Part shown: in pieces, positions 6,996 through 48,628 of the stretch
Layout: each line of letters starts with the position of its first letter
Numbering within the stretch: position 1 is the first letter of the stretch
Made by a program: the position numbers and the translations under genes
The notes under the pieces: model-generated
Database searches by the model: none
What the model was told of the DNA's origin: nothing
Seen by the model: the letters and a program-made list of their open reading frames with translations, nothing else
DNA from: an uncultured Gammaproteobacteria bacterium
GTDB lineage: Bacteria > Patescibacteriota > Patescibacteriia > Patescibacteriales > JAKAJF01
Length of the DNA: 51,366 nucleotides
Direction: 5' to 3'
Assembly: GCA_964360445.1 (NCBI GenBank)
Contig: CAYHWE010000003.1
Location: forward strand, 1-51,366

Positions 6996-6998
6996 AAT

Positions 6999-21273: not shown

Positions 21274-22084
21274 TTATCGACAAAAACAATATTCAAATCC
21301 ATTTTTTTCCCGCAATAACAGGGGGGCGCGACCTGGGAAAAAATGGCTTAAAAGGGTCATGTTTTTATTGATCTTAGCGGCCGTTTTAACCTTGGTTTGG
21401 TTTATTTATTTTTCTCCATACTTTAAGATAAAAAGTTTTAAAATCAACGGTTTGAATAGGATCTCCAGCGCTGAAATTGAAAATTCATTCTGGAGCCAGG
21501 CTGATAAAAGAAAATTATTTTTCAGTTCACAAAAAAATTTATTCCTATTCGATGAAGACGAATTTATTTCATCAATAAATGATAGATATAATTTTATTTC
21601 CGTAGAGCTTAAGAACGACCTGCCTGACGCTTTTATCCTGGATTTGAAGGAAAGGGAACCTATCGCGATATGGAATGAGGATGGAAATAATTTCCTGATT
21701 GATAATGAGGGGTATATCATAGTTCCGGCTTCACAGGCTGATTTTGATCAAAAAATGCCGATGATTGAAAACCATAGCGGCAATAAGGTTTCCGATAAAA
21801 AGATAGGCATCAGCCAGAAAAAAAATGATTTTATTTTAAACATCTTTACTGATTTCAAGGACAGCAAAATCGATTATCAAATTGAAAAAGTTTTCATTGA
21901 AAACGATGTCGACACCATAAAAGTCTTATTATCAAATGGCCCCTTTATTTTATTGAATTCAAGAGGGGACTCAGATAAGCAGATCGAGAAAATCTCGTCC
22001 CTTTATAGGGATATGCATAAGGATGAATTCGCTAAAAATGAGTATTATGACTTAAGATATGGCGACCGGGTTTATTATAAATAA
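21248..22084 (+). CDS. ftsQ: Cell division protein FtsQ/DivIB-like (POTRA domain)
   Basis: It has a basic N-terminus, one TM (VMFLLILAAVLTLVWFIYF), a POTRA-like FKIKSFKINGLNRISSAEIE, and dcw-type context. Confidence 0.75.
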   Translation: MLAKKIRFNYRQKQYSNPFFSRNNRGARPGKKWLKRVMFLLILAAVLTLVWFIYFSPYFKIKSFKINGLNRISSAEIENSFWSQADKRKLFFSSQKNLFLFDEDEFISSINDRYNFISVELKNDLPDAFILDLKEREPIAIWNEDGNNFLIDNEGYIIVPASQADFDQKMPMIENHSGNKVSDKKIGISQKKNDFILNIFTDFKDSKIDYQIEKVFIENDVDTIKVLLSNGPFILLNSRGDSDKQIEKISSLYRDMHKDEFAKNEYYDLRYGDRVYYK

Positions 22085-22104
22085 TCAACAGCTAGGCCGG
22101 CAGA

Positions 22105-22134
22105 TTGACAAAAGTGCGTTTAATGTGGTAATAT
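22105..22134 (+). promoter_or_regulatory. Near-consensus sigma70-type promoter
   Basis: TTGACA, an 18-nt spacer, then TAATAT, followed by a CCGCGG...CCGCGG hairpin and the small ORF at 22190. Confidence 0.45.
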
Positions 22135-22189
22135 ATATGGATTTGCTCCGCGGGCAGTTCCGCGGAATTTAATTATTTTTTAAAAAAAT

Positions 22190-22348
22190 ATGGGTTTCAT
22201 AGATCCAGAGACAGCTTTTAAAATCGTGTTTTTTATAGCCATTGTAATTTTCTGCTTGGTTACGATCGGATTCTTTTTATTGGCTATGAAAATTTTATTG
22301 TTATTCATACCAGAGATAACCCTGATGGGCATAAATTTCAGCCATTAG
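22190..22348 (+). CDS. Candidate small membrane protein (52 aa), below the ORF-track cutoff
   Basis: MGFIDPETAFKIVFFIAIVIFCLVTIGFFLLAMKILLLFIPEITLMGINFSH has one or two hydrophobic helices and sits downstream of a good promoter. Confidence 0.35.
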   Translation: MGFIDPETAFKIVFFIAIVIFCLVTIGFFLLAMKILLLFIPEITLMGINFSH

Positions 22349-22459
22349 GCCAAGTTATTGGCATTCTTATCTTATTGATGCTATACTTGGATTAATCTAC
22401 ATTATGCGAAGTGATATATATAATAAGACTATTTAAGCTTTAATCATTCCCCATGCATT

Positions 22460-23413
22460 ATGGCTACTAAAATAATAATCGATCATCTGACTGATTTTCT
22501 TGATTATATTGAAATTGAAAAAGGTCTTTCCTCCAAAACTCAGGAAAATTATTCCCGTTTCTTGAATAAGTTTTTTAAATGGCTGAAAGATAATAAACTT
22601 GATAAGCTTACTCCGGACAGGCTGGACGCTGATCATGTCTGGAGATATAAAGTTTTCCTATCAAGACATATCGATCCGCGCACCAAACTGCCGTTAAAAA
22701 AGACTACCCAGAATTGTTATCTGATAGCCTTAAGGAGTCTATTGGATTTTTTTGTTGAGAAAAATATATCTTCCCTGCCGCCGAATAAAATAAAATTAGC
22801 CAGGGACAAGAATGATAAGGAAATCAAATTTTTGAAATTGGAACAGGTTGAAAGACTGCTCTCCTCCCCTAGCCCCAAAAGCATTATCGGTCTGCGCGAC
22901 AGAGCGATTTTAGAAACATTGTTTTCCACCGGACTCCGAGTTTCAGAATTGGTCAGTCTGGATCGGGATCAGGTAAGGATAAGAAGTGGTGTGGATGATC
23001 TGGAGATTGTTATAACCGGTAAGGGCGGCAAGGTGCGCACGGTTTATTTTTCAGGACGCGCGATAAGAGCGATAAGGGATTATTTTGACAGGCGCATGGA
23101 TACTGATGAGGCATTATTCATAAATTACAGTTCGGGAGGAAAAGAATCAACAGAGTCGCGCAGATTGAGTGTTAAAAGCATTGAGGATGTGGTCAAGAAA
23201 TATATTAAGCTGGCGGGCTTGCCTGTTATGGCTACCCCACACACCCTGCGCCACTCTTTCGCTACCGACCTACTGTCTAATGGCGTCGATCTCCGCTTGG
23301 TGCAGGAATTTCTAGGCCATAAGAATATTTCCACCACCCAGATCTATACCCATGTCACAAGCAAGCAGTTAAGGGATATCCACAGAAAAATACATAGCAA
23401 AAGAAGGATATAA
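22460..23413 (+). CDS. Tyrosine site-specific recombinase, XerC/XerD family
   Basis: It has an N-terminal SAM-like domain plus the catalytic set (R in GLRVSEL, HTLRHSFAT, LGHKNISTTQIYTHV). Confidence 0.85.
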   Translation: MATKIIIDHLTDFLDYIEIEKGLSSKTQENYSRFLNKFFKWLKDNKLDKLTPDRLDADHVWRYKVFLSRHIDPRTKLPLKKTTQNCYLIALRSLLDFFVEKNISSLPPNKIKLARDKNDKEIKFLKLEQVERLLSSPSPKSIIGLRDRAILETLFSTGLRVSELVSLDRDQVRIRSGVDDLEIVITGKGGKVRTVYFSGRAIRAIRDYFDRRMDTDEALFINYSSGGKESTESRRLSVKSIEDVVKKYIKLAGLPVMATPHTLRHSFATDLLSNGVDLRLVQEFLGHKNISTTQIYTHVTSKQLRDIHRKIHSKRRI

Positions 23414-31324: not shown

Positions 31325-31419
31325 CTTAATGTAAGCCAAAAAATAATCCCACCCAACCCCCGTTGTCAGGGAGATTTTTTTATTTGTCCAACTTCCTTAT
31401 TTATATTATAATTATAGAT

Positions 31420-32868
31420 ATGAAAAAAATCAGCAAGAAACTTTTTATAATAACATTCTGCGCGGCCGTCATCTTTTCATCGATGCCGAGGGGAGTATTG
31501 GCGGAAGGCTTTAATCCGAATTATATAATAAGCGACAATGAGATCCTTGATTACAATTCGATGAACCTTGAGAATATACAGGAATTACTTAAAAGCAATA
31601 ATAGCTATCTGGATTCCTATTCGACCCAGAATCCTGATGGCAAGACGATGACAGCGGCGGAAATAATTTACGATCGCGCGACTGTAAATAAAGTGAATCC
31701 TAAATTCATCCTGGTTTTATTGCAAAAAGAACAGAGCTTGATAGAAGAATCTTCTCCGAAACAAAGCCAGCTTGACTGGGCGGCCGGCTATGGATGCCCG
31801 GACGGAGATTCATGCAATACCCGTTGGAAAGGCTTCTGGAAGCAGGTTAACAGCGCTTCTCTCCAGTTCCGTGATTACATGGATAACCCGCATCTCTACA
31901 CCTATAAATCAGGCGGAACATACACATTCACCAATCCCTACTCGACAACCGTCAAAGATTCCGTTGTCGTTACGCCGGTAAATCAGGCGACAGCTTCTCT
32001 TTATAATTATACCCCGCATGTTTATAACGGCAATTTTAATTTTTATAAGATATGGCAGCGTTATTTCACGAAAAATTATCCGGACGGCTCTTTGATCCAG
32101 GCTCAGGGAGAGGCGGGAGTGTGGCTTATCCAAGACGGGAAGAAAAGGCCGTTCACAAGCAAGGGCGCTCTTACTTCAAGATTTGATATGAATAAGATCC
32201 TGTCCGTCAACAAGACTGATCTGGATAAATATGAAAAAGGAACACCGATAAAATTCGCCCAATACTCATTAGTGCGTTCTCCGAGAGGGACGATATATCT
32301 TCTGGCGGATGACAAGAAATATGGCATAGCGAGCCAGGATGCGTTCAAAAAAATCGGATTCAACAGGGATGAAGTCGTAACCGCAAGCTGGGAAGATATA
32401 GATTCCTATGCCGAAGGCGCGCCTATCACGGCTACGTCCACTTATCCGACAGGGGCGTTGCTGCAGAATAAGATGACCGGCGGCGTTTATTGGGTCATAG
32501 AAGGGAAAAAAGCCCCGATATGGGACAAGGCGTTCCTGAACACGAAATTCAAGAATAAAAAAATAATAAGAGTCGCTCAGACTGAACTCGATACTTATCC
32601 GACGACGGATCCAGTCTTATATGGCGATGGCGAACTATTGAAAGCGCCCTTATCGGCCGCTGTATATGTCATAACAGGCGGACAAAAGAAGCTGATCGCT
32701 TCCGGCAAGGTATTTGAAGATCTCGGCTATAAATGGTCCAATGTGATAACGGTAAACACTAAAGTGCTGCACCTCTATCCAGACGGAGAACCGATTACGA
32801 CGACAGAATCGTCATCTTCCTCATCAACAAGTTATACTCAGAATAATTCCCAGATTTCTCAAAGATAA
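31420..32868 (+). CDS. Secreted protein: N-terminal cell-wall-associated-like domain, four ~55-aa tandem repeats and a Ser-rich tail
   Basis: The signal peptide is MKKISKKLFIITFCAAVIFSSMPRGVLA. The NPKFILVLLQKEQSLIE block resembles domains seen in wall hydrolase-like proteins (from memory). The repeats are described in the findings. The ORF opens with TTG at 31363, so the ATG at 31420 is preferred. Confidence 0.65.
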   Translation: MKKISKKLFIITFCAAVIFSSMPRGVLAEGFNPNYIISDNEILDYNSMNLENIQELLKSNNSYLDSYSTQNPDGKTMTAAEIIYDRATVNKVNPKFILVLLQKEQSLIEESSPKQSQLDWAAGYGCPDGDSCNTRWKGFWKQVNSASLQFRDYMDNPHLYTYKSGGTYTFTNPYSTTVKDSVVVTPVNQATASLYNYTPHVYNGNFNFYKIWQRYFTKNYPDGSLIQAQGEAGVWLIQDGKKRPFTSKGALTSRFDMNKILSVNKTDLDKYEKGTPIKFAQYSLVRSPRGTIYLLADDKKYGIASQDAFKKIGFNRDEVVTASWEDIDSYAEGAPITATSTYPTGALLQNKMTGGVYWVIEGKKAPIWDKAFLNTKFKNKKIIRVAQTELDTYPTTDPVLYGDGELLKAPLSAAVYVITGGQKKLIASGKVFEDLGYKWSNVITVNTKVLHLYPDGEPITTTESSSSSSTSYTQNNSQISQR

Positions 32869-32912: not shown

Positions 32913-33701
32913 ATGTCTATCGTATTCTCAGCCATCGTTCCGCATTCCCCTCTTTTTATCCCTTCAATCGGCAAGGATAATTTGAAGCGGCTGAAAAGCA
33001 CGATCAAGGCGCTCGGCAAACTTGAAGAAGAGCTGTATGCGAGCCAGCCTGATACGATCCTGATTATCTCTCCGCATGGCGTCATCCAGCCGCATTCTTT
33101 CGGCATGAATCTGAGCCCTGAATATGATTGCGGTTTTGAGCAATTCGGCGATTTCAGCACGAAAATGCGATTTGCCGGCGATGTCGGACTAGCTTATAAA
33201 ATAAGGGAAAGGATGGAAACAAGAGCGCCGCTGCAGCTTATGAGCGAGACGGATCTTGACCACGGCTGCTCAGTGCCTCTATTCATGCTGGCATCGCATA
33301 TGCCGAATGTAAAAATAATCCCCATTTATTACTCCGGGCTTGATCTGGAGGCGCATTTTAAATTCGGCCAGCTTCTGCGCCGGGAATTGCTTGTGAATAA
33401 AACACGCGTCGCGGTAATCGCATCCGGAGATCTTTCACACAGCCTGACAAAAGAAGCCCCGGCAGGATATTCGCCGAAGGCTAAAAAATTCGACAAGAAA
33501 ATAATTGAGCTTTTATCGGAATGGAAGACTGCCGACCTTTTGAGTATTGATAAAAAAATATTGCGCGAGGTCAGCGAATGCGGCCTGAAATCAATCGTTA
33601 CCCTGACTGGCATACTGGACGGGCACAAGCACGAACCGCAGATACTTTCTTATGAGTTCCCTTTCGGCGTCGGTTATCTCACTATGGATTTTCGTCTTTA
33701 G
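32913..33701 (+). CDS. Class III extradiol dioxygenase (LigB) family protein
   Basis: SAIVPHSPLFIPSIG ... ILIISPHG ... DHGCSVPL ... IASGDLSH follows the LigB-type His/Asp pattern. Length is 262 aa. Confidence 0.65.
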   Translation: MSIVFSAIVPHSPLFIPSIGKDNLKRLKSTIKALGKLEEELYASQPDTILIISPHGVIQPHSFGMNLSPEYDCGFEQFGDFSTKMRFAGDVGLAYKIRERMETRAPLQLMSETDLDHGCSVPLFMLASHMPNVKIIPIYYSGLDLEAHFKFGQLLRRELLVNKTRVAVIASGDLSHSLTKEAPAGYSPKAKKFDKKIIELLSEWKTADLLSIDKKILREVSECGLKSIVTLTGILDGHKHEPQILSYEFPFGVGYLTMDFRL

Positions 33702-33969
33702 CCGGTTTTTTAGACGAGGCTACTTTAAAAAAATATTTCCATCTCTCCCCTGTCTTGCATAATTCCTTCGTGTCGTTCAGGCACATCTCGACAAAGCTTT
33801 TCGGATTTTCTTTGCAAATCTTAAAAACAGAATTTCTCTTGAAATTAGGTATGCCCAGTTCCTTTATGATCCTTAAAGCCAGATCCTGCCATTCATAAGC
33901 AGGCGGTTTTTTTTGTTGCCGCGCCTTGAATAAACTAGCTAAATCTTGGAACCCGTCATTTATTTGCAT
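33682..33969 (-). CDS. Hypothetical small protein (95 aa; start uncertain, alternative ATG at 34014)
   Basis: Only the 3' third of the 223-aa ORF is free of overlap with def. The sequence is MQINDGFQDLASLFKARQQKKPPAYEWQDLALRIIKELGIPNFKRNSVFKICKENPKSFVEMCLNDTKELCKTGERWKYFFKV... Confidence 0.45.
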   Translation of the reverse strand: MQINDGFQDLASLFKARQQKKPPAYEWQDLALRIIKELGIPNFKRNSVFKICKENPKSFVEMCLNDTKELCKTGERWKYFFKVASSKKPAKDENP

Positions 33970-34042
33970 ATTCTTATTGTAATTTTTCCATAAATAGCCT
34001 AAAATGTAAACCATCACCTGGATTAACGATAACTCCAATAAT

Positions 34043-34504
34043 ATGACGAGGATATTAAAAATAACCATAAATCCGAATCCGATACTCCGGAAAGTCTCGG
34101 AAGAGATAAGTCCGGAAGAAATAGGCTCAAAAAAAATAAATGAGCTCTGTTTGAATATGGCTGAAACGATGGTTAAAAAAGACGGCGTCGGGCTTGCCGC
34201 TCCGCAGGTCGGGAAAAATATAAGAGCGGTTGTGGTCAACACCAAAGATGGGCCGGTATTCATGGTCAATCCGAAAATCAAGAATAAATCGCTGACAAAA
34301 GAATGGGGCGAAGAAGGATGCCTGTCAGTGCCGGGCGTTTTTGGCCAAGTCAAAAGGCATAAAAGCCTGATCTGTGTTTTTTATGATATCAAGGGCAAAA
34401 AGAATCAGATGAAAGCAAAAGGCCTTCTTGCTCGTGTGATCCAGCATGAAATAGATCATCTTGATGGCATCTTGTTCATCGATAAAGCGAAGGATATAAA
34501 ATAA
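34043..34504 (+). CDS. def: Peptide deformylase
   Basis: GVGLAAPQVG, EGCLSVPG and HEIDHLDG motifs are present. Confidence 0.95.
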   Translation: MTRILKITINPNPILRKVSEEISPEEIGSKKINELCLNMAETMVKKDGVGLAAPQVGKNIRAVVVNTKDGPVFMVNPKIKNKSLTKEWGEEGCLSVPGVFGQVKRHKSLICVFYDIKGKKNQMKAKGLLARVIQHEIDHLDGILFIDKAKDIK

Positions 34505-36843: not shown

Positions 36844-36979
36844 ACTCACCTCCTTGTATTTTTTTAACCATATTAGCAGATTTTATTATTTTTACAATAC
36901 CGCCGTGACGTACGTCCCATTATTTACAAATCCGCGAAATCATGCTACACTCTCCGCCTATTCAAACAAGCAAGCTGAT

Positions 36980-37435
36980 ATGGAAATAAAAAAAATTAAA
37001 AATCAGGCGAGGCGGATCAAGAAAAAAAATAGCCGTGTCTGGCTATTTTTTAATCCGAAAAAAATAACAGCAGCAATCACAGCGTTATTTTTCGTCGCAT
37101 ATGCAAAAGCAATATGCGCCGCCAATGCCGATCAATTACTTTGGGGCGGACGCGAGGACGAAGTCCGGATCATAACAGGTCTTGGCAGCAGGGATCCTCT
37201 ATTTATCATCGCCGGGCTGATACGAGTCATATTAAGTTTCCTCGGCATCCTGGCGCTGGCAATAATAATGCTGGCAGGATTCAAATGGATGGTTTCCGGC
37301 GGCAATGAAGAAAAATCCGATGAAGCGAGAAGGATGCTGTTCAGCGGGATAATAGGACTGATCATAATCCTGGCCTCTTTCGCTCTGGCAAGTTATCTGA
37401 TAAACAATTTGGCTGATATAATCGGTATCTTGTAA
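36980..37435 (+). CDS. TrbC/VirB2-like type IV secretion system pilin family protein
   Basis: It has a long basic signal peptide ending AICA, then two hydrophobic helices (LFIIAGLIRVILSFLGILALAIIMLAGFKWMV and LFSGIIGLIIILASFALASYLI) separated by the charged loop SGGNEEKSDEARRM. The ATG at 36980 is preferred over the TTG at 36854. Confidence 0.65.
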   Translation: MEIKKIKNQARRIKKKNSRVWLFFNPKKITAAITALFFVAYAKAICAANADQLLWGGREDEVRIITGLGSRDPLFIIAGLIRVILSFLGILALAIIMLAGFKWMVSGGNEEKSDEARRMLFSGIIGLIIILASFALASYLINNLADIIGIL

Positions 37436-41512: not shown

Positions 41513-43060
41513 CTATCTTGCTTTCGGCGTCACCCAAAATCCCATATATCTGCCCAACATAAGCCTTGTCTGGGCTTCAAGACCAGGGAATGACCCGAAA
41601 AATATGATACTCAAGGGAAGGATCAGCCATTGGGCTATCATTACGATATTTTTTCCTATGCCATAATTTTTCGGCCGTTTCGGCAGCAAGAGATTGGAAA
41701 CTATGGCTGATAATACTAGTCCGCCCATAGCGATGGTCATAAGAGTCCTTGAAACTACCGGAAGATTGCCGGAAAGGACGGTCGTATTGAAAGCATCGCC
41801 GCCTAAAAGCATGGGCAGCCATCCGATCACGCCTATGATCAGGGCGTTAGTCGCCCAAGAATGGAATCCGTAAAGCTGGTTGAAAATCTTGCTCAGCATA
41901 TCTCTCTTCGGGATCCTGTCCCAATTTTTCATAGTGTTGAAAATAAGATACGGCACATTTTCCACGCCCCAGCCCCATCTTCTCTGCTGCTTATAAAGGT
42001 TCCTCATTGTTTTTTTTATGCTCTCATCCATGCACACATCCATCGATACGGAAAAATACAGAGGCTCGACGCGGTAATCTCCGTTGTAATGGAGATAGCA
42101 GTGCCAAAAAATCCTTGAGTCCTCGCTGACCATTTTTGTCGACCAAAATCCGATATCGACAAGCGCTTTCCAGCTCATAGAATGAGAAGAGTAAGTCGCC
42201 AATTTCTCGACTCTGATCTGTTGCATCATCTGCCAGAAGGTATTTGAAGACGCGGCCACTCTCGCGAAAAAAGGCGCTTCCCAGATATTATTATGATAGA
42301 CAGGAATCGGCTGATAGCTTGCCTGGTGCGGCTTTTCCACGGTCAGAAATCTGTGCGTCAGGCAATAAAAATAGCCGCGGTTGATGATCGTATCGATATC
42401 AAAAACGCTGACAATAATCTTATCATAATCAATTCCTTCTTTGTCGATGATTTTTTCTTTTACCTCCCGGGCCGCCCAGGCCTGGTTCGCGCCCTTGCCC
42501 TTTATCTCTCCTTCAATGCCGTCAGGATGGATTGTAATCAAAAAATTGCGGAAATACTTTCCGAATTCCTGTTCTATCGTTTTCGCCCGCTCCATAGCTT
42601 CATGTCCGCCCCGCTCTTCGATCGCAAGCACCATGATCATATTCTTCGTCGGATAACCATCATTGACAACAGCCCGGAAGCTCGGCCTTATAACATCCAG
42701 ACTTTCATTGTATGTCGGAAAAATGATCAGATGCGCAAGTTCATCGATGCTCTCCAGTCTAAGACCGGCCTTTGACAAGTCAAGACCTCTGCATTTTTCT
42801 TCCCAATCGATCCTCATATTCTGTTTTAATTTCTTATAGCTGACAACAAGATGGATGCCTAGATAAGCGACAAGCAAAAGCCAGTAAACATCGAACGCGA
42901 CTATGAAATAAGCGACCCAGATCGGTTTAAGATAAGAAAGCGCGACCAAGATTATCAGAGTAGCCCATGACAAAAAAGCCGGGAGCATCTCGAGCCCCCT
43001 GTAAATCTTATAATCCCTGCCAGACAAATCACCCGCTTTTCCAATTTTTAGATAATCCAT
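41513..43060 (-). CDS. Membrane-embedded processive family 2 glycosyltransferase (D,D,D,QxxRW type)
   Basis: It has N-terminal TMs, FPTYNES, DIDT, SED and QQRRWGWG (QxxRW), plus about 4 C-terminal TMs. The start may instead be 42988 (MLPAF), which would remove the 32-nt overlap with the PHP gene. Confidence 0.75.
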   Translation of the reverse strand: MDYLKIGKAGDLSGRDYKIYRGLEMLPAFLSWATLIILVALSYLKPIWVAYFIVAFDVYWLLLVAYLGIHLVVSYKKLKQNMRIDWEEKCRGLDLSKAGLRLESIDELAHLIIFPTYNESLDVIRPSFRAVVNDGYPTKNMIMVLAIEERGGHEAMERAKTIEQEFGKYFRNFLITIHPDGIEGEIKGKGANQAWAAREVKEKIIDKEGIDYDKIIVSVFDIDTIINRGYFYCLTHRFLTVEKPHQASYQPIPVYHNNIWEAPFFARVAASSNTFWQMMQQIRVEKLATYSSHSMSWKALVDIGFWSTKMVSEDSRIFWHCYLHYNGDYRVEPLYFSVSMDVCMDESIKKTMRNLYKQQRRWGWGVENVPYLIFNTMKNWDRIPKRDMLSKIFNQLYGFHSWATNALIIGVIGWLPMLLGGDAFNTTVLSGNLPVVSRTLMTIAMGGLVLSAIVSNLLLPKRPKNYGIGKNIVMIAQWLILPLSIIFFGSFPGLEAQTRLMLGRYMGFWVTPKAR

Positions 43061-43805: not shown

Positions 43806-43874
43806 GGGATTGCCACAAATCTAGCTGCAAATATTACAAATATTTGCGCCGTCTTTATTAAAATTTGCAGATTA

Positions 43875-45791
43875 TTACATTTCTATGTCTTCGAGTCTGA
43901 CATCCTTGCCCTCTTCAAGTTCGCCCTCTTTGATAAGATTATTGTCGTTGTTTTTATGGATCGCGGGATGATTATTGGCTGACGGCCTCTGTTCCGGTTC
44001 TTTTATATCCTGTTTTTTCGGAGCCGGATCAGGCATCCTTTCTTTGCCTTTGAAATCGACAATCTTCTTTCTTGTCAGATCGCTCAGGGAAAGCTCTTCG
44101 CCCCTATCTCCGCCGCCTTCAGCCCTGCCATCATGACGGCTGTCCGGCTTTTGGATATTATCTCTCCTGTCTATTTTTTGCAATTCCTGTTCTTTTGCTT
44201 TCATCCTGAATTCAGTATCTCTCCTTTTTTCATTTTTAGCCGTGCTCAGACAGTCTTTGCAGAAAATAGGGCGTATTCCGTCCGGCACAAAAGAAATTTT
44301 GGTTTCCTTCCCGCAACGCGAACAGATCGCGCTATTCTTCGGAGGTTCATTCCTTGTGTCCGGCTGCCATGCCCGAGAACTTTTCTCTATTTCCCGTTCC
44401 CGCCTTTCCGGTTCTCTTCTGAATGCCGGCTCTTCTCTTTTAGGCTCCCTGAATTCCTTAAATTCCTTTTTTTTGGGAACTTCGCTGGTTCTTTCTTCAT
44501 CGATACTTTCATGCCAACGGGAAATCTTCTCTTCGACTTCCCCCCTGCCTCTTGCGTATCTTTCTCTTGAGACATTGATCACTTTTTCAACATTTCCGGT
44601 TTTTTCTTCCTCTGTCAATGGCGCCAAACCTCTTGCCGAAAACGGATCGGAGGCGATACCATCGATCATCAGTTTCAGATAAAATTCATACTTAGGCAGA
44701 TTCACTATATCCTCTTCTAAAAATGTCGGCGTAAATTCCTTCACTAATTCTTCCGCGTCAGCGGCGCCTACCCTGAAAACGATCAGAGTTCCGACATTGC
44801 CGAAAACAGCCGGCTTTACTTTTTCTCCCAACTGTTCGATATATTGATGGGCCATGATCAGGTTAAGGCGGTATTTTCTCGCCTCTGAAAGGATATTCGC
44901 AAAACTGTCTGTGGCAAAATTCTGGAATTCATCGACATAGAGATAAAAATCCCTTCTTTCGTTTTCCGGAATATCAACGCGGCTCATGGCAGCGAGCTGG
45001 ATTTTCGTAATCATCATCGAACCGAGCAATGCCGAATTATCTTCTCCGATCCTACCCTTGCTCAAATTCATGATCAAAATTTTCCCCTCGTCCATAATCT
45101 CTCTTACATCGATAGAAGATTTGACCTGGCCGACTATGTTACGGATCAGGGAGCTTGATAAGAATTGTCCGACTTTATTCTGGATCGGAGATACGGCTTC
45201 GGACGCGAATTTATCCGCGTATCCGGCGAATTCATTGACCCAGAAAGATTTCACTACCGGATCCTGGATCTTTTCAACCACCTTTTTCCTGAAAGCCTTA
45301 TCGGAAAGCATCCTTGTAACCGCCAGGAGGGTCGAGCCAGGGTAATCCAAAACAGCCAGGATCGCATTGCGCAGGATATATTCCAGGCGAGGCCCCCAGG
45401 AGTCGGCCCATAATTTTTGGAACACGCCTAAAAGGCCGGAGGCGACAAGATGCCTCAGGTGCGGCTCAACGTGTTCGACAACGTTAAAAGCGATGGGGAA
45501 TTCCATATCCGACGGATTGAAATAAACCACGTCATTGATCCTGTGCGCGGGGATATATTGGATGACTTTCTCCGCAAGATCGCCGTGCGGATCGACGATC
45601 GCGACGCCCTTGCCCGCCCTTATATCTTCAATGATCATATTCTCAAGAATGGTTGATTTTCCCATTCCGGTTTTTCCGATCAGATACATATGGCGTCTCC
45701 TGTCATCAGCTTTTATGCCGAATCGCCTGTGCTGATTGCGGAATGTCGTTTCCGCAAAAATTGTGATTGGATTATCTTTATTATTGTTCAT
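43875..45791 (-). CDS. VirD4/TraD (TrwB)-like type IV secretion coupling-protein-type ATPase, soluble, with a charged C-terminal tail and a CxxC-x17-CxxC zinc ribbon
   Basis: HMYLIGKTGMGKSTILENMIIEDIRAGKGVAIVDPHGDL (Walker A), FYLYVDEFQNFAT (Walker B), ARKYRLNLIMAHQYIEQL, and CSRCGKETKISFVPDGIRPIFCKDC in the tail. Confidence 0.75.
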   Translation of the reverse strand: MNNNKDNPITIFAETTFRNQHRRFGIKADDRRRHMYLIGKTGMGKSTILENMIIEDIRAGKGVAIVDPHGDLAEKVIQYIPAHRINDVVYFNPSDMEFPIAFNVVEHVEPHLRHLVASGLLGVFQKLWADSWGPRLEYILRNAILAVLDYPGSTLLAVTRMLSDKAFRKKVVEKIQDPVVKSFWVNEFAGYADKFASEAVSPIQNKVGQFLSSSLIRNIVGQVKSSIDVREIMDEGKILIMNLSKGRIGEDNSALLGSMMITKIQLAAMSRVDIPENERRDFYLYVDEFQNFATDSFANILSEARKYRLNLIMAHQYIEQLGEKVKPAVFGNVGTLIVFRVGAADAEELVKEFTPTFLEEDIVNLPKYEFYLKLMIDGIASDPFSARGLAPLTEEEKTGNVEKVINVSRERYARGRGEVEEKISRWHESIDEERTSEVPKKKEFKEFREPKREEPAFRREPERREREIEKSSRAWQPDTRNEPPKNSAICSRCGKETKISFVPDGIRPIFCKDCLSTAKNEKRRDTEFRMKAKEQELQKIDRRDNIQKPDSRHDGRAEGGGDRGEELSLSDLTRKKIVDFKGKERMPDPAPKKQDIKEPEQRPSANNHPAIHKNNDNNLIKEGELEEGKDVRLEDIEM

Positions 45792-45799
45792 AAATATTT

Positions 45800-47293
45800 T
45801 TAAGCGAATGGTAAATTAGCAGGTGGCGTTCCTTTTTCTATTTCGTCCTTTTTACTTTCTTTTTTCTCCTGTCTTATTTGTTCTTGCGGAGCGATGAATT
45901 CTGCCGGCGCCGGCTCTTCTTCAAAAATAGACTCCAACGGCTCCAGCAGGTCTTCACTGACGGTTTCCGCGCCGACCGGGAGGCTTGATGGCGGTTCAGC
46001 TTTTCTTCCCGGAGCCTTTTGAATCAAAGGAGCTTTTACCACGCTCTCGATCGGGAAATGCCAGATTGTCGCCAGTTCTTCCGTATTCAGAATGCCTGGC
46101 AATCTGCCGGCAAAACCATCCCTGTTCATATAATTCCTTACGATGCTTGATTTCTTCTTATTCAGCCTTGATTCCTTGAAAAAATAAGCGGTAGAAGTCA
46201 TTGTTTTTTTAGTGTCTGGCTTGAAGCTGTTTAAATCTAGGGCGGTAAACTGTTTCATATATCCGACAAAGCCATTGGCCACCTTCGGCTTGTTCATAAC
46301 ATCTTTTTTAGCTATATATACGAATCTTAGCTTGCACTCAAAACCGATCTTGGAAATCTTATTATGCGCCGCTTCAACCTGTTTTTTCTCTTTTGGCTTC
46401 AGATTCATCATCTTCAGCGCGTCTTCTTTTTTCTCTTCTTTCGGCGCTTCCGTAATGCCGGACCACATACTGTAAACTACTTCGCTGAAAAATCCCATTA
46501 CGCCCAAAACGCCATCGATAGCATTGTCGATTATATTTTTTGCCGGAGCCATTTCTTCTTTCAATATCTTTTTTACCGCAACATCGCCGATAGTCGTCCA
46601 TGCATTCATATCTATCGGTTTTACTATTATCTGGTACCAAAGCTGTTCTCCTCTCCTCAAGCTGCTGCACAGATCCATCAACGTCGCCATCGGATCCCTG
46701 AATGTCGTCTCTGGTTTTCCGAATTGATGCTCAAACTCCTGATAGACCTTTATCGGAAAAGCCTGATCGCCTGTCTGGATAAATTCCGCGCCCCAAACAT
46801 CGTAATCGTCATCCGGATATTTTCTCGGCATTCCTTCGGTGTAGTCGCCGACTTCGGTAATTTCCGCGTCCGGATATTGGGAGTAAATAGCAGTTTCAAC
46901 AAGATTCCTGAACGGAATCGGCGTCCTGATTAAAAATTGCGTATATCCGTCAATACTGACTATTTCAAAGCTGAAAGACAACTGGAATTTTCCATCCCAA
47001 TAAATGTCCAGCAGATTCAAGCTGCCATGCGTGCCGGCCAGATAGGCGAACATATTTTCCACCGCCATCGGAGACTGCTCGTTGCCTCTTGGTATGTCGA
47101 TTGCCAATAAGGTAAATTTCTGGGTCGCCACCCATTTGTTCTGTATATACTCCATCCAGATATCCTTGAACCCGATAAGCAAAGCGATTCCCAACGGAAT
47201 CCATCCGACGGTCCAAAAGATATTCATCATCATGATATCAGCCGGTTGGCTAATAAAGGCCAAAATAGAGGTTAAATCAATTTCTATGCTCAT
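45800..47293 (-). CDS. Uncharacterised membrane-anchored protein, probable partner of the coupling-type ATPase
   Basis: The N-terminal hydrophobic segment is MMMNIFWTVGWIPLGIALLIGF. It is followed by about 400 aa of soluble domain and a P/E-rich tail. The gene ends 8 nt before the ATPase start. Confidence 0.6.
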   Translation of the reverse strand: MSIEIDLTSILAFISQPADIMMMNIFWTVGWIPLGIALLIGFKDIWMEYIQNKWVATQKFTLLAIDIPRGNEQSPMAVENMFAYLAGTHGSLNLLDIYWDGKFQLSFSFEIVSIDGYTQFLIRTPIPFRNLVETAIYSQYPDAEITEVGDYTEGMPRKYPDDDYDVWGAEFIQTGDQAFPIKVYQEFEHQFGKPETTFRDPMATLMDLCSSLRRGEQLWYQIIVKPIDMNAWTTIGDVAVKKILKEEMAPAKNIIDNAIDGVLGVMGFFSEVVYSMWSGITEAPKEEKKEDALKMMNLKPKEKKQVEAAHNKISKIGFECKLRFVYIAKKDVMNKPKVANGFVGYMKQFTALDLNSFKPDTKKTMTSTAYFFKESRLNKKKSSIVRNYMNRDGFAGRLPGILNTEELATIWHFPIESVVKAPLIQKAPGRKAEPPSSLPVGAETVSEDLLEPLESIFEEEPAPAEFIAPQEQIRQEKKESKKDEIEKGTPPANLPFA

Positions 47294-47419: not shown

Positions 47420-48628
47420 TTATTTCAGCTTATACTTGTTATTCTCTGTTTTTTCGAATTTATCCCTATTCATCAAAGCCAGGATTATTGTCGCCCTTTT
47501 CACCAGACGTTGCTTTAACACCTCCTCTATTATCTCATCCCTGGTCAAGCCTGCTGGATTATTTTTCAATATCTCTACGACAACATCGGCGACCGTCCCC
47601 GTCTTATACCCCCATTCCTTAAGGCTGTATAATCCTCTGCCGACTAAAATATATTTATTATCAAGAATAAGTTCGTTATGGACAGTGGCCGCATTAGCTT
47701 TTTTCGCGTCAAAACTGATTTCATTTATTTTTTCCGTGATCCCGACAAAGTGCATCGGTTTTCCGTTATTTTTCAAAACCAGGTAAATCTTATCATTAAT
47801 CGTCTTCGGCTTTACTTCCCTCCATTCATCAACGCCCCAATGCCCGAACTTGTTCTGTTCGATTTTTTTCAGGGCCTGGATCGCAGAATACAAAGTCTTA
47901 TGCTGATTGATGAATCCGGAATCTTCGTCAAACGGCTTTAATTTCAGGACACCCGAGATGTCGATATTGCTTCCTGACTGGAATTTATCGATATTAGCCT
48001 TGAATGTCTCAAGCTCTTTCAGGAAATTGATCAGATCGACGGTGGTAAAGACCTTTTTTGTCTGCTCGATCTTATTGATGAATTCTTTCGCCAATTCCTC
48101 CATATGATCCAATACCAGATATTTGAATTTGAACAGATCTTTGAACAGATTCGAATCGATAACTTCCTCGAATTCATTATGAAGCAATCTTGAAATCAGG
48201 AAATCAAGATGGTTCTTATGCAGATTTTCGCTTTTCTTCAATCCGCTTCCGTCAACAGAAAAAGCGACCAGGCTGTCCAATAGATAATTTTTTTCCATAA
48301 AACCGCCATGCTCTTCCAATAACTGGGTGATGACCTTTTTCAATCCCTTGATATGCTCATTCAGGCTTTCAAGTTGGCGCAATTTTTTTACCCCGGTAGT
48401 TTCTATCTGCCTGATACGTTCCCTCGTCAGATTATGGATCTTGCCGATATTTTCCAAAGTCTCTTTTTCTTCGCCATGCAAGCCGAAACGGCGGCTCAGG
48501 ATATCGCGGTCTCTCTCATTCAATTCATTCAGAAGATTATTTATAATCTCAACACTGTTAAGATTAGCGATTTCTTCCGCCTTTTGATTGGTTAGAATTT
48601 GATCAAGGATGGATTTGTTATCTTCCAT
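47420..48628 (-). CDS. Sigma-70 region 4-like HTH protein with C-terminal HARE-HTH/winged-helix domains (no region 2)
   Basis: The region 4 block is LNERDRDILSRRFGLHGEEKETLENIGKIHNLTRERIRQIETTGVKKLR. The HARE-HTH-like block is IYLVLKNNGKPMHFVGITEKI...HNELILDNKYILVGRGLYSLKEWG. Confidence 0.65.
   Translation of the reverse strand: MEDNKSILDQILTNQKAEEIANLNSVEIINNLLNELNERDRDILSRRFGLHGEEKETLENIGKIHNLTRERIRQIETTGVKKLRQLESLNEHIKGLKKVITQLLEEHGGFMEKNYLLDSLVAFSVDGSGLKKSENLHKNHLDFLISRLLHNEFEEVIDSNLFKDLFKFKYLVLDHMEELAKEFINKIEQTKKVFTTVDLINFLKELETFKANIDKFQSGSNIDISGVLKLKPFDEDSGFINQHKTLYSAIQALKKIEQNKFGHWGVDEWREVKPKTINDKIYLVLKNNGKPMHFVGITEKINEISFDAKKANAATVHNELILDNKYILVGRGLYSLKEWGYKTGTVADVVVEILKNNPAGLTRDEIIEEVLKQRLVKRATIILALMNRDKFEKTENNKYKLK

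What the first reader, a model, noticed from the sequence alone, without database searches (positions are those of the whole stretch)
43875..47293. Minimal T4SS-like pair: a soluble VirD4/TraD-type ATPase plus a membrane-anchored partner, with no other T4SS core genes nearby
Seen in sequence: the 638-aa protein has Walker A GKTGMGKST, a DPHGD block, Walker B YLYVDEFQNF and an AHQY..QL block, laid out as in TrwB/VirD4 coupling proteins. It lacks the N-terminal TM segments those proteins normally have.

The gene 8 nt upstream encodes a 497-aa protein with one N-terminal hydrophobic hairpin. I could place no recognisable domain in it.

No VirB4, VirB6, VirB8-10, relaxase or oriT-like genes occur anywhere in the 51 kb.

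Inference: the membrane anchor has been split into a separate subunit. The pair may be a reduced, uncharacterised translocation machine in a CPR-like cell, possibly for DNA or protein transfer or host interaction. Together with the pilin gene 6.4 kb away, this is the best candidate here for an undescribed system.
Basis: partly seen in the sequence, partly recalled or inferred. Interest (0 to 1): 0.7.

Follow-up and report, generated by a model that had tools for sequence, protein, structure and literature searches.

The report
Split coupling-type ATPase of Patescibacteria
The two genes are real and together form a split version of a membrane-anchored, conjugation-type motor ATPase that most ultra-small Patescibacteria carry as one protein; here it lies among cell-wall and cell-division genes, and its job is still unknown.

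Summary
Both ORFs exist as described: 497 aa at 45800-47293(-) and 638 aa at 43875-45791(-), 8 nt apart.

The ATPase is a soluble FtsK/HerA-superfamily P-loop protein. It scores best as a type IV coupling protein (T4CP): Pfam TrwB_AAD_bind 45 bits, best PDB sequence match TrwB.

The partner is Pfam DUF8128. It has one N-terminal TM helix, a roughly 355-residue domain whose predicted fold matches only VirB4/TrwK in the PDB, and an invariant C-terminal PPxNLPF tail.

Key result: the pair is a gene fission. In many Patescibacteria and in Bacillus phages (phage G gp156, phrog_5156), DUF8128 and this ATPase form one chain. Fused P0419 aligns colinearly to both window genes, with the break at the gene boundary.

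The pair is adjacent in 45 of 82 informative related loci. There it lies in a conserved murC-murB-...-GT2-divIC-ftsEX block, and no T4SS genes were seen near it in the loci examined. The ATPase is the best-conserved gene of that block.

"Minimal T4SS" is not shown.

The function is open. I favour a housekeeping, envelope- or division-linked nucleic-acid motor (0.4) over a distal T4SS coupling role (0.3). It is a new variant of a known kind.

The parts
45800..47293 (-). Membrane-anchored partner, 497 aa, Pfam PF26449 DUF8128. It corresponds to the N-terminal half of the fused TM-DUF8128-ATPase proteins.
   Evidence: ORF. PF26449. Colinear with residues 40-390 of fused P0419 (31.5% identity, E 8e-45) and residues 78-393 of P0429. 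phrog_5156 positions 76-290.
47165..47236 (-). Single TM helix of the partner, residues ~20-43. Predicted N-out, with the globular domain in the cytoplasm.
   Evidence: Kyte-Doolittle 19-residue maximum 1.77. Flank charges are -3 on the N side and +1 on the C side. AF2 helix at 18-57. The topology is inferred from the positive-inside rule.
46049..47116 (-). Globular alpha/beta DUF8128 domain, residues ~60-415, with a VirB4-N-terminal-domain-like predicted fold.
   Evidence: AF2 core pLDDT is mostly 80-95. The top 13 Foldseek PDB hits are all TrwK/VirB4 (E 8e-5 to 3e-3, prob 0.94-1.0, TM ~0.3). In the viral library it matches phage G Gp156 (1e-16), phage Slash (TM 0.48) and the VirB4-like Gp155 (5e-6). 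No sequence-profile link to VirB4 or TrsD was found.
45977..45997 (-). Junction motif E433-PPSSLP-439. In fused relatives this motif directly precedes the ATPase domain.
   Evidence: Invariant P435 and P439. Alignments to fused P0429 and P0485 run through this motif into the ATPase N-terminus.
45803..45826 (-). Extreme C-terminal short linear motif PPANLPFA (residues 490-497), after a ~50-residue disordered acidic linker. Candidate docking peptide.
   Evidence: P491, N493, L494 and P495 are invariant in 46 sequences. The motif is kept in nearly all of the 85 loci of both synteny classes. pLDDT is below 50 for residues 420-491. The docking role is inferred.
43875..45791 (-). Soluble T4CP-like FtsK/HerA-superfamily ATPase, 638 aa. 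It corresponds to the C-terminal half of the fused proteins, plus a zinc-finger tail.
   Evidence: Pfam TrwB_AAD_bind 45.3 bits, DUF87 32.7, TraG-D_C 25.4. TrwB is the best PDB sequence hit. 60% identical to residues 390-837 of fused P0419. phrog_5156 positions 408-817, 231 bits.
44502..45710 (-). ATPase core, residues 28-430. It includes Walker A (45651-45677), DPHGD, a helical insertion at residues ~110-235, Walker B (44916-44945) and AHQY..QL.
   Evidence: The motifs are invariant in 44 homologues. AF2 shows helices 110-235 between the P-loop strands, on a low-confidence model. The core is 84-92% identical within the split clade.
44238..44333 (-). Treble-clef CxxC-x17-CxxC zinc finger, residues 487-518 (C490, C493, C511, C514), flanked by K/R/E-rich disordered segments.
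   Evidence: Pfam zf_Tbcl_2 42.9 bits and TIGR04272 42 bits, both above cut-off. The cysteines are invariant. Tail composition. Zinc binding by this domain type was shown in M. mazei small proteins (PMC12704099).
47294..47419 (-). Intergenic region upstream of the pair. It holds a terminator-like hairpin (GGACCTCC-GAAA-GGGGGTC followed by TTTT) after the Sigma70_r4 gene, then an A/T-rich stretch ending in TAAAAT-like hexamers. This suggests the pair is its own transcription unit.
   Evidence: Sequence read. The consensus scanner did not call it, so this is a reading of the sequence, not a tool call.
47420..48628 (-). Context gene: 402-aa Sigma70_r4 + HARE-HTH (RNAP-delta-like) protein. It is the most conserved neighbour of DUF8128.
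   Evidence: Pfam and NCBIfam hits. It lies directly upstream in 71 of 85 loci, in both synteny classes.
41513..43060 (-). Context gene: 515-aa membrane GT2 (Glyco_trans_2_3, weakly PgaC/IcaA-like). It is the conserved downstream neighbour in genomes that have the adjacent pair.
   Evidence: Present downstream in 31 of 43 class-1 loci at a median 68% identity.

Best explanation
SHOWN. The two genes are the two halves of a protein that most Patescibacteria, and some Bacillus phages, make as one chain: N-terminal TM helix, then DUF8128 domain, then T4CP-like P-loop ATPase. In this lineage the gene was split exactly at the inter-domain linker. The ATPase half also gained a C-terminal zinc finger embedded in charged disordered segments. 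The catalytic motifs are intact and invariant. The pair is chromosomal and single-copy in the window. It lies in a conserved murC-murB-(Sigma70_r4/HARE-HTH)-DUF8128-ATPase-GT2-divIC-PBP-ftsEX block. The ATPase is the most conserved gene of that block.

INFERRED MECHANISM.
- DUF8128 sits in the membrane with its globular, VirB4-N-domain-like part in the cytoplasm.
- It holds the soluble ATPase at the membrane through the surface that is an intramolecular interface in fused relatives, possibly helped by its PPxNLPF tail.
- The ATPase forms a ring, as TrwB, HerA and FtsK do, and uses ATP to move or hand over a polymer.
- The zinc-finger/charged tail points to nucleic acid as that polymer.

INFERRED ROLE (my commitment, about 0.4). 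It is a housekeeping motor tied to envelope growth or division, for example DNA handling at the septum. It is not part of plasmid conjugation and does not need a T4SS encoded next to it.
For: Fission:
- One PHROG family (phrog_5156, 824 positions) is hit by DUF8128 at positions 76-290 and by the ATPase at 408-817.
- Phage G gp156 (825 aa) aligns to the DUF8128 profile at residues 18-168 (prob 87%) and to the ATPase profile at residues 373-788 (prob 99.9%).
- About 90 listed proteins of 725-1142 aa, those with source names being Patescibacteria, carry PF26449 together with one or more of PF10412, PF01935, PF02534 and PF12696.
- Fused P0419 residues 40-390 match window DUF8128 and residues 390-837 match the window ATPase (60% identity).
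- In a rough NJ tree the split zinc-finger ATPases nest inside the fused Patescibacteria clade.
- 63 of the 120 listed relatives have an N-terminal TM.

Family: TrwB_AAD_bind is the best Pfam hit and TrwB the best PDB sequence hit.

Fold of the partner: only VirB4/TrwK chains score significantly in the PDB.

Housekeeping and envelope context:
- The same gene order recurs in L003, L004, L086, L087 and 43 class-1 loci.
- No T4SS Pfam families occur within 8-10 kb in five relatives.
- Median identity is 70.5% for the ATPase, against 63.6% for MurC and 53.4% for MurB.
- In genomes where the ATPase is not adjacent, DUF8128 still sits between ftsI/mur genes and glycosyltransferases.

Literature:
- 5,713 T4CP homologues were found in 2,918 of 3,035 Patescibacteria genomes, and only 148 are near virB4.
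- The S. epibionticum homologue is dispensable although the T4SS is essential.
- The authors raise exaptation (PMC12102498).
Against: - The role rests on gene neighbourhood only.
- Fused paralogues sit in other contexts. One, P0485, lies right beside a T4SS cluster. This fits a coupling role for the family.
- Adjacency of the two genes holds in only 45 of 82 informative loci.
- A 54%-identical zinc-finger ATPase (P0493) has an unrelated upstream gene.
- No physical interaction was modelled. No hetero-complex prediction was available.
- The ATPase model is poor (pLDDT 62). Foldseek ranks HerA, TrwB, DotL and VirB4-CTD about equally.
- The VirB4-like fold of DUF8128 has low TM-scores (~0.3) and no sequence-profile support.
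- FtsK presence or absence in this genome is unknown. At least the saccharibacterium TM7x is reported with ftsK (listed).
- Nucleic-acid binding by the zinc finger is untested.
Confidence: 0.4

Rival explanations
1. Genuine type IV coupling protein in two pieces. DUF8128 anchors the ATPase at the membrane. The ATPase recruits substrates, nucleic acid or proteins, and delivers them to the chromosomal, near-universal Patescibacteria T4SS (VirB4/VirB6/VirB3/VirB8/TrsD plus VirB2-like pilins), which is encoded elsewhere in the genome.
For: - Best profile and PDB sequence matches are T4CPs.
- A close fused relative, P0485 (55% identity in the ATPase domain), lies divergently next to PrgI-like and VirB4 (AAA_10/P-loop_TraG) genes.
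- 148 T4CP homologues are near virB4 in the 2025 survey. T4CP genes far from virB4 are not unusual (PMC12102498).
- The essential S. epibionticum T4SS cluster lacks a recognisable coupling protein of its own (PMC10633639).
- The survey's counts (VirB4 in 80% of genomes, at least one T4CP in 96%, about two per genome) would fit one VirB4 and two T4CPs in every genome at about 80% completeness. This is my own arithmetic on the numbers seen.
- A borderline VirB2-like gene lies 6.4 kb away.
Against: - No T4SS gene is in the window or within 8-10 kb of the pair in five relatives.
- The ML1 T4CP homologue is dispensable while the T4SS is essential (PMC12102498).
- The pair has a fixed position in a cell-wall/division block, and the ATPase is more conserved than MurC or MurB.
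- No relaxase is present.
- The pilin-like hit is below cut-off and has no counterpart in the held loci.
Confidence: 0.3
2. VirB4-like rather than VirD4-like machine. TM + DUF8128 (VirB4 N-domain-like) plus the ATPase together mimic VirB3-VirB4. They act as an assembly or extraction ATPase for envelope proteins or pilins, in the way VirB4 dislocates pilin, possibly with the neighbouring glycosyltransferases. Nucleic acid is not the substrate.
For: - The DUF8128 model matches only TrwK/VirB4 in the PDB, and also the VirB4-like phage G Gp155.
- The total length of the fused forms (~730-940 aa) and their N-domain + ATPase order equal VirB4.
- hhalign of the ATPase profile scores pGO1 VirB4 (TrsE, E 1.8e-5) better than pGO1 T4CP (TrsK, E 1.2e-3).
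- pGO1 itself encodes the VirB4-N-like TrsD as a separate gene just upstream of VirB4 (PMC12102498).
- Glycosyltransferases follow DUF8128 in both synteny classes.
Against: - Pfam and NCBIfam VirB4 models are not matched above noise (TIGR00929 18.6 bits against a cut-off of 643).
- TrwB_AAD_bind covers the whole core.
- No sequence-level link exists between DUF8128 and VirB4 N-domains or TrsD.
- Foldseek TM-scores are only ~0.3.
- The zinc-finger/charged tail suggests nucleic acid.
Confidence: 0.12
3. Remnant or cargo of a mobile element, phage or defence system (HerA-type), unrelated to core cell biology.
For: - Homologues occur in Bacillus phages, in a proposed 'DNA translocation operon' with a relaxase-like gene (PMC3357382).
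- There are weak PADLOC hits to mad8 and HerA.
- There is a weak P-loop-only hit to a terminase PHROG.
Against: - The chromosomal position is fixed across dozens of genomes, between mur and fts genes.
- GC content is only slightly above the window background (0.46 against about 0.41).
- No integrase, relaxase or defence partner is adjacent.
- Purifying selection is extreme.
- The PADLOC and terminase hits are generic superfamily or P-loop matches.
Confidence: 0.03

Closest known systems
Fused TM-DUF8128-T4CP-like ATPases of Patescibacteria (counted as 'T4CP homologues' in PMC12102498) and their phage relatives: Bacillus phage G gp156, SPO1 gp27.4 and 0305phi8-36 orf201 (phrog_5156)
   Same: Same two domains in the same order, colinear along their full length. 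The ATPase is 43-64% identical to the Patescibacteria fused forms and ~30% identical to phage G. DUF8128 is 26-32% identical. Roughly half of the listed relatives have the same N-terminal TM helix.
   Different: Here the chain is cut into two genes at the linker. The DUF8128 half gained a disordered linker plus a PPxNLPF tail. The ATPase half gained a zinc finger and charged tails, which were not found in the fused proteins whose sequences were checked. The genomic context is a cell-wall/division block rather than dnaX, gyrBA, a T4SS or a phage relaxase.
Type IV coupling proteins VirD4 / TrwB / TraD / DotL
   Same: FtsK/HerA-superfamily NBD with Walker A, Walker B and the AHQ block. A helical insertion lies where the all-alpha domain sits. 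TrwB_AAD_bind and TraG-D_C are above Pfam cut-offs. TrwB is the best PDB sequence match.
   Different: There are no N-terminal TM helices on the ATPase chain. The anchor is a ~355-residue DUF8128 domain with one TM, absent from classical T4CPs. No relaxase or T4SS is nearby. Scores are far below every NCBIfam TraD/VirD4 equivalog cut-off. The zinc-finger tail is an addition.
VirB4 / TrwK, and the split TrsD + TrsE (VirB4) arrangement of pGO1-type monoderm T4SS
   Same: Bipartite organisation: a non-ATPase N-domain followed by a HerA/FtsK-type ATPase. The DUF8128 fold prediction matches TrwK chains only. pGO1 gives a precedent for a VirB4-N-like protein encoded as a separate gene immediately upstream of the ATPase.
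   Different: No sequence-profile similarity to VirB4 N-domains or TrsD. VirB4 family models are not matched. No VirB3, VirB6 or VirB8 neighbours.
FtsK / SpoIIIE septal DNA translocases
   Same: Same ATPase superfamily. Membrane-tethered motor. The genomic neighbourhood here is cell division, and a XerC/D-like recombinase is in the window.
   Different: Pfam FtsK_SpoIIIE scores 14 bits, below its 24-bit cut-off, and the match covers only residues 7-54 around the Walker A motif. No gamma/KOPS domain. No 4-TM N-domain. No tblastn similarity to the E. coli FtsK motor.
HerA (HerA-NurA, and defence HerA systems)
   Same: The DUF87/HerA central domain is above cut-off (32.7 bits). The top Foldseek hit of the mediocre ATPase model is Sulfolobus HerA.
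   Different: No HAS-barrel-sized N-domain, only ~30 residues before Walker A. No NurA, Sir2 or DUF4297 partner. T4CP profiles score higher.

Membership tests
T4CP (VirD4/TrwB/TraD) | FtsK/HerA-type nucleotide-binding domain with intact Walker A and B, matching T4CP profiles | tested here: met
   TrwB_AAD_bind 45.3 bits (cut-off 20.5) over residues 28-349. T4SS-DNA_transf 24.1 (cut-off 20.1). TraG-D_C 25.4 (cut-off 22). TrwB E 5.7e-6 in the PDB. Motifs invariant.
T4CP (VirD4/TrwB/TraD) | All-alpha domain inserted in the NBD | tested here: inconclusive
   The AF2 model shows an all-helical insertion at residues ~110-235 between the P-loop strands, but confidence there is low (pLDDT ~55-75). The Pfam alignment spans this region.
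T4CP (VirD4/TrwB/TraD) | N-terminal transmembrane domain on the same polypeptide | tested here: not met
   No hydrophobic window above 1.29 in the ATPase. The anchor is supplied in trans by DUF8128 and in cis in fused relatives.
T4CP (VirD4/TrwB/TraD) | Genomic or functional linkage to a relaxase and a T4SS channel (VirB4, VirB6 and others) | tested here: not met
   None among the scanned window ORFs or within 8-10 kb in L002-L004, L086 and L087. Genome-wide presence is not testable here.
T4CP (VirD4/TrwB/TraD) | Reaches a curated equivalog or subfamily score (NCBIfam TraD, VirD4-like CD1115) | tested here: not met
   Best scores are 50.3 bits against a cut-off of 366 (SXT_TraD) and 38.7 against 250 (CD1115).
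VirB4 | N-terminal domain of VirB4 type preceding the ATPase domain | tested here: inconclusive
   Foldseek: the 13 best PDB hits of the DUF8128 model are all TrwK/VirB4 (prob 0.94-1.0) but TM is ~0.3. hhalign and hmmsearch against TrsD, TrsE, gp155 and the PDB found nothing.
VirB4 | Matches VirB4 family models | tested here: not met
   TIGR00929 18.6 bits against a cut-off of 643. No CagE_TrbE_VirB, AAA_10 or P-loop_TraG Pfam hit.
FtsK/SpoIIIE | FtsK_SpoIIIE motor-domain match, gamma domain, multi-TM N-domain | tested here: not met
   PF01580 scores 14.0 bits, below its 24-bit cut-off, and the match covers only residues 7-54 around the Walker A motif. No tblastn hit with the E. coli FtsK motor. 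No TM.
HerA | HerA central domain plus N-terminal HAS barrel and a NurA-type partner | tested here: not met
   The DUF87 domain is matched (32.7 bits) and HerA is the top Foldseek hit. However, only ~30 residues precede Walker A, and no nuclease partner is adjacent.
DUF8128-T4CP-like family (Patescibacteria fused proteins / phrog_5156) | DUF8128 domain followed colinearly by this ATPase clade | tested here: met
   phrog_5156 is hit by both genes at non-overlapping positions in the right order. Colinear BLAST to P0419, P0429 and P0485. The split clade nests inside the fused clade. The only difference is that it is two genes.
DUF8128 (PF26449) | Match to the Pfam model | tested here: met
   Precomputed PF26449 on the window protein and nearly all homologues. 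The model is absent from the local Pfam copy.
CxxC-x17-CxxC / zf_Tbcl_2 zinc finger | Four cysteines at the family spacing and a score above cut-off | tested here: met
   PF23477 42.9 bits (cut-off 27). TIGR04272 42 bits (cut-off 36). C490, C493, C511 and C514 are invariant. Metal binding is not testable here.

The most novel reading that the evidence does not exclude
A T4CP/VirB4-related motor lineage has been taken over for an essential, non-conjugative cell function in Patescibacteria. The split DUF8128 + zinc-finger ATPase would be a membrane-tethered nucleic-acid pump of the divisome or envelope. One version has it segregating or clearing chromosomal DNA at the septum, an FtsK-like job done by a coupling-protein relative. 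Another has it as the inward motor that takes up host-derived RNA or DNA on which these nucleotide-auxotrophic epibionts depend (compare the 2026 preprint 10.64898/2026.06.21.733656 on feeding on host RNA).
Probability: 0.25. Interest if true: 0.85.

Novelty: new variant of a known kind. Interest (0 to 1): 0.58.

Why it matters
Patescibacteria are a large share of bacterial diversity, and the way they exchange macromolecules with hosts is a central open question. Their T4SS is essential, yet it lacks a recognised coupling protein in its own cluster. Meanwhile about two orphan "T4CP homologues" per genome have no assigned role.

This analysis adds several things:
- It gives those orphans an anatomy: TM helix, a DUF8128 domain with a VirB4-N-like fold, then the ATPase.
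- It shows that one paralogue was split into two genes and gained a zinc finger.
- It shows that this paralogue is more conserved than the neighbouring Mur enzymes and is fixed in the cell-wall/division block.

This makes a concrete, testable candidate for either the missing coupling ATPase or a new division- or uptake-linked nucleic-acid motor. It also assigns a context to Pfam DUF8128. The architecture sits between VirB4 and VirD4, so it bears on how those two T4SS ATPases diverged.

Tried and rejected
- Sequence-level homology of DUF8128 to VirB4 N-domains or TrsD. Tried: hhalign of A1 and A3 against pGO1 TrsD, TrsE and phage G gp155, and hmmsearch of A1 and A3 against the PDB. Nothing was found. 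The VirB4 link therefore stays fold-level only.\n- Discriminating TrwB from HerA from VirB4 by structure. The ATPase model was poor because the alignment was too uniform (pLDDT 62), and Foldseek ranked them all about equally.\n- FtsK identity. Rejected: Pfam below cut-off and no BLAST similarity.\n- Defence-system or terminase identity. Only generic P-loop or superfamily hits.\n- Literature search for DUF8128 returned no papers. A search for CPR + FtsK + divisome also returned none.\n- Whether genomes with DUF8128 but no adjacent ATPase ('class 2') encode the ATPase elsewhere, and whether this genome has FtsK, a T4SS or a fused paralogue. They showed no obvious similarity to one another and were dropped.\n- A hetero-complex structure prediction was not possible with the tools.

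Full report
OBSERVATION

The window has two co-directional ORFs on the minus strand. One is 45800-47293 (497 aa). The other is 43875-45791 (638 aa). They are separated by 8 nt.

The 638-aa protein carries these motifs:
- G39-KTGMGKS-T47
- VDPHGD (residues 66-71)
- Y283-LYVDEFQNF-292
- A314-HQYIEQL-321

All are invariant or nearly so in 44 homologues. The protein has no hydrophobic segment; the best 19-residue Kyte-Doolittle window is 1.29.

The 497-aa protein has a single hydrophobic stretch at residues ~20-43 (1.77). The structure model shows it as one long helix at 18-57. It is therefore one TM helix, not a hairpin. The flank charges (-3 on the N side, +1 on the C side) suggest that the bulk of the protein is cytoplasmic. 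That topology is an inference.

Both are real genes. Homologues number in the thousands and are 50-85% identical.

WHAT THE TWO PROTEINS ARE

ATPase. The Pfam hits are:

| Family | Bits | Cut-off | Region |
|---|---|---|---|
| TrwB_AAD_bind | 45.3 | 20.5 | residues 28-349 |
| DUF87/HerA | 32.7 | 23.2 | |
| TraG-D_C | 25.4 | 22 | |
| T4SS-DNA_transf | 24.1 | 20.1 | |
| FtsK_SpoIIIE | 14 | 24 (below) | |

- The best PDB sequence match is TrwB (E 5.7e-6), followed by DotL.
- No NCBIfam TraD, VirD4 or VirB4 equivalog cut-off is approached.
It scores 42.9 bits on PF23477 and 42 bits on TIGR04272, with all four cysteines invariant. It sits between K/R/E-rich disordered segments.
- This zinc-finger type binds zinc in M. 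mazei small proteins. Its function is unknown (PMC12704099).
- The AlphaFold model of the ATPase is mediocre (pLDDT 62), probably because the alignment is so uniform. Foldseek then ranks HerA, TrwB, DotL, DndH-C, Cag-beta and VirB4-CTD about equally.
- In short, sequence profiles favour a T4CP. Structure cannot discriminate.

Partner.
- It is Pfam PF26449, DUF8128.
- No paper in the library mentions DUF8128.
- The family has 2,347 clusters at 50% identity with E <= 1e-3.
- The AlphaFold model (pLDDT 74.5, core mostly 80-95) shows a TM helix, an alpha/beta domain at residues 60-415, then a disordered linker.
- Against the PDB, the 13 best Foldseek hits are all TrwK/VirB4 of R388 (E 8e-5 to 3e-3, prob 0.94-1.0), with TM-scores of only ~0.3.
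- None of the listed hits is an ATPase-domain-only structure. I therefore infer that the match is to the VirB4 N-terminal domain.
- Against viral models, it matches phage G Gp156 (1e-16), phage Slash (TM 0.48), phage JL and the VirB4-like phage G Gp155 (5e-6).
- Profile comparisons with pGO1 TrsD, pGO1 TrsE and phage G gp155, and profile searches of the PDB, found nothing.
- The VirB4 resemblance is therefore fold-level only.
- The extreme C-terminus carries an invariant PPxNLPF(A) motif after a disordered acidic linker.
- This tail resembles the internal EPPxxLP motif (residues 433-439).

KEY RESULT: A GENE FISSION

- A PHROG scan gave one family, phrog_5156 (824 positions). DUF8128 hits positions 76-290 (48 bits). 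The ATPase hits positions 408-817 (231 bits).
- Bacillus phage G gp156 (825 aa) aligns to the DUF8128 profile at residues 18-168 (prob 87%). It aligns to the ATPase profile at residues 373-788 (prob 99.9%, E 7e-33).
- Searching with gp156 returned about 90 proteins of 725-1142 aa. Those with source names are Patescibacteria (Berkelbacteria, Falkowbacteria, Saccharibacteria, Gottesmanbacteria).
- These proteins carry PF26449 together with one or more of PF10412, PF01935, PF02534 and PF12696 in one chain.
- Roughly half of the listed relatives begin with a TM helix.
- Fused P0419 (927 aa) matches window DUF8128 over residues 40-390 (31.5% identity, E 8e-45). It matches the window ATPase over residues 390-837 (60% identity, E 1e-172). 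The break falls at the gene boundary.
- P0429 and P0485 behave in the same way.
- In fused proteins the EPPxxLP motif leads straight into the strand that is the N-terminus of the window ATPase.
- A rough NJ tree of ATPase domains places the split zinc-finger clade inside the fused Patescibacteria family, nearest to P0419, P0422 and P0423. The phage proteins fall outside.

The added point is that the 'anchor' is a whole ~355-residue domain, not just TM helices.

CONTEXT

Read on the minus strand, the window runs in this order:
1. MurC
2. MurB
3. a 402-aa Sigma70_r4 + HARE-HTH protein
4. DUF8128
5. ATPase
6. PHP
7. a 515-aa membrane GT2
8. DivIC
9. tRNAs
10. PBP/DPBB
11. FtsE
12. FtsX

Elsewhere the window holds polysaccharide genes, tRNA synthetases, ClpB, an FtsQ-like gene and a XerC/D-like recombinase. 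Among the ORFs scanned there is no VirB4, VirB6, VirB8 or relaxase.

The same order recurs in relatives with 8-10 kb flanks, and no T4SS families appear there.

In 85 loci:
- The ATPase follows DUF8128 on the same strand in 45, with gaps from -41 to +587 nt.
- In 37 loci with at least 2.5 kb downstream there is no ATPase.
- Three loci are too short to judge.

In two of the 37 loci that were inspected, L022 and L038, DUF8128 is followed by a GT4 and a DUF4012 protein, and in L022 by a TerC-like gene first. It is preceded by PBP/Mur genes in L022 and by a glycosyltransferase in L038.

The Sigma70_r4/HARE-HTH gene is directly upstream in 71 of 85 loci. The PPxNLPF tail is kept in both classes.

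Within the block the ATPase is the best-conserved gene. Its median identity is 70.5%, against 68% for GT2, 63.6% for MurC and 53.4% for MurB. Its 400-residue core is 84-92% identical within the split clade.

A hairpin followed by T's lies between the Sigma70_r4 gene and DUF8128. The scanner did not call it.

Fused paralogues sit elsewhere:
- next to dnaX (L091)
- near gyrBA (L092, a saccharibacterium)
- as two tandem paralogues (L096)
- in L093, divergently beside a PrgI-like gene and VirB4, close to dnaA/dnaN

In SPO1 the fused homologue gp27.4 lies between a Replic_Relax protein and an actin-like protein. Pathria et al. called the equivalent genes of phage 0305phi8-36 a non-essential 'DNA translocation operon'. 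They noted a non-TM N-domain on the 'coupling ATPase' (PMC3357382).

LITERATURE

Quinonero-Coronel et al. 2025 (PMC12102498) reported the following:
- 5,713 VirD4-type T4CP homologues in 2,918 of 3,035 Patescibacteria genomes.
- Only 148 of them lie near virB4.
- The S. epibionticum homologue is dispensable although the T4SS is essential.
- Exaptation 'cannot be ruled out'.
- TrsD is described as a remote homologue of the VirB4 N-terminal part, often next to virB4.

pGO1 indeed encodes trsD immediately upstream of its VirB4.

Wang et al. 2023 found no recognisable coupling protein in the essential T4SS cluster (PMC10633639).

In the passages I read, I found no description of the DUF8128 domain, the fission, the zinc finger or the division-cluster position.

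HOW IT MOST LIKELY WORKS

Shown:
- It is a two-gene version of a TM-DUF8128-ATPase protein.
- The catalytic motifs are intact.
- It is chromosomal, core and under strong constraint.

Inferred:
- DUF8128 tethers the ATPase ring to the cytoplasmic face of the membrane.
- It does so through what is an intramolecular interface in fused relatives, perhaps aided by the tail peptide.
- The motor acts on nucleic acid, as the zinc finger and charged tails suggest.

| Reading of the cellular role | Weight |
|---|---|
| Housekeeping motor tied to envelope growth or division | about 0.4 |
| Two-piece coupling protein serving the T4SS encoded elsewhere | about 0.3 |
| VirB4-like assembly ATPase | about 0.12 |
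| Mobile-element or defence remnant | about 0.03 |

- The second rests on family membership, P0485 lying beside a T4SS, and the T4SS cluster lacking its own T4CP.

The neighbourhood evidence is guilt by association. I could not test FtsK or T4SS presence genome-wide. No E. coli FtsK-motor match exists in the 1.2 Mb of loci I held, which says little.

VERDICT

The split anchor and the T4CP-like ATPase hold. A 'minimal T4SS with the pilin' does not.
- This is a new variant of a known kind. It is a T4CP/VirB4-related ATPase family with a distinctive N-domain, here fissioned, zinc-finger-tailed and embedded in the division/cell-wall cluster.
- Interest is moderate to high for CPR and T4SS specialists.

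Noticed in passing
window 47420-48628 (-): A 402-aa protein has Sigma70 region 4 at its N-terminus (residues 32-85) and a HARE-HTH / RNAP-delta-like domain near its C-terminus (residues 277-339). It has no region 2. It is the most conserved neighbour of DUF8128: directly upstream in 71 of 85 loci, including those that lack the adjacent ATPase. Its function is unknown, and it may belong to the same module.
   Followed up: partly
L018, L020, L022, L027, L033, L035, L037, L038 and 29 other loci (DUF8128 near 6001-7500): 'Class 2' synteny. DUF8128 keeps its PPxNLPF tail and the upstream Sigma70_r4/HARE-HTH gene, but no ATPase lies within at least 2.5 kb downstream. In the two loci inspected (L022, L038) it is followed by GT4 + DUF4012, with a TerC-like gene first in L022. 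Whether the ATPase is elsewhere in these genomes could not be tested.
   Followed up: partly
window 45803-45826 and 45977-45997 (-): The C-terminal PPANLPFA tail of DUF8128 looks like a second copy of the internal EPPSSLP junction motif, which precedes the ATPase in fused relatives. This suggests the tail docks in trans where the covalent linker used to be.
   Followed up: no
window 36854-37435 (+): A VirB2/T4SS-pilin-like 193-aa protein. T4SS_pilin scores 26.1 bits, just below the 26.6 cut-off. NCBIfam Mbov_0395 pilin-like scores 24.3 bits against a cut-off of 40. It lies on the opposite strand beyond ftsEX. No counterpart was found in the held related loci.
   Followed up: partly
window 41513-43060 (-): A 515-aa membrane GT2 (Glyco_trans_2_3, weakly PgaC/IcaA-like) follows the ATPase in 31 of 43 class-1 loci, either directly or after a variable PHP or DUF1361 gene. 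It is nearly as conserved as the ATPase (median 68% identity).
   Followed up: partly
L096 6899-9394 and 10001-12784: Two fused DUF8128-ATPase paralogues (831 aa and 927 aa) lie in tandem in one Patescibacteria contig, separated by a 178-aa ORF. This fits the published figure of about two T4CP homologues per genome. The 927-aa type is the closest fused relative of the window pair.
   Followed up: partly
L093 4963-12187: Fused P0485 (no TM, 728 aa) lies divergently next to a PrgI-like gene and a VirB4 that is called as two ORFs (possibly a frameshift), about 7 kb from dnaA/dnaN. It is the only case seen here of the family beside a T4SS.
   Followed up: no
L089 1196-5338 (phage G) and L090 774-6284 (SPO1): Phage G encodes a VirB4-like ATPase (gp155: P-loop_TraG, AAA_10) immediately upstream of the fused gp156. 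In SPO1 the fused gp27.4 is flanked by a Replic_Relax protein (gp27.3) and an actin-like protein (gp27.9).
   Followed up: partly
L094 / L095 (P0493 and its upstream gene): A zinc-finger ATPase 54% identical to the window protein is preceded, 40 nt upstream, by a 520-551-aa protein with no detectable similarity to DUF8128 and no Pfam hit. This may be a different partner in another lineage.
   Followed up: partly
window 31363-32868 (+) and 33682-34353 (-): ORFs of 501 aa and 223 aa have no Pfam or NCBIfam match at E <= 0.001.
   Followed up: no
window 21248-23413 (+): An FtsQ/DivIB-like gene is followed by a XerC/XerD-like tyrosine recombinase (226 bits to XerD and XerC models, below the equivalog cut-offs). 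Xer systems usually depend on an FtsK-type translocase, which is not present in the window.
   Followed up: no
window 43806-43874: A perfect 9-bp inverted repeat, GCAAATATT-TGT-AATATTTGC, lies between the ATPase stop and the PHP gene start. It is not followed by a T-run, and its role is unknown.
   Followed up: no
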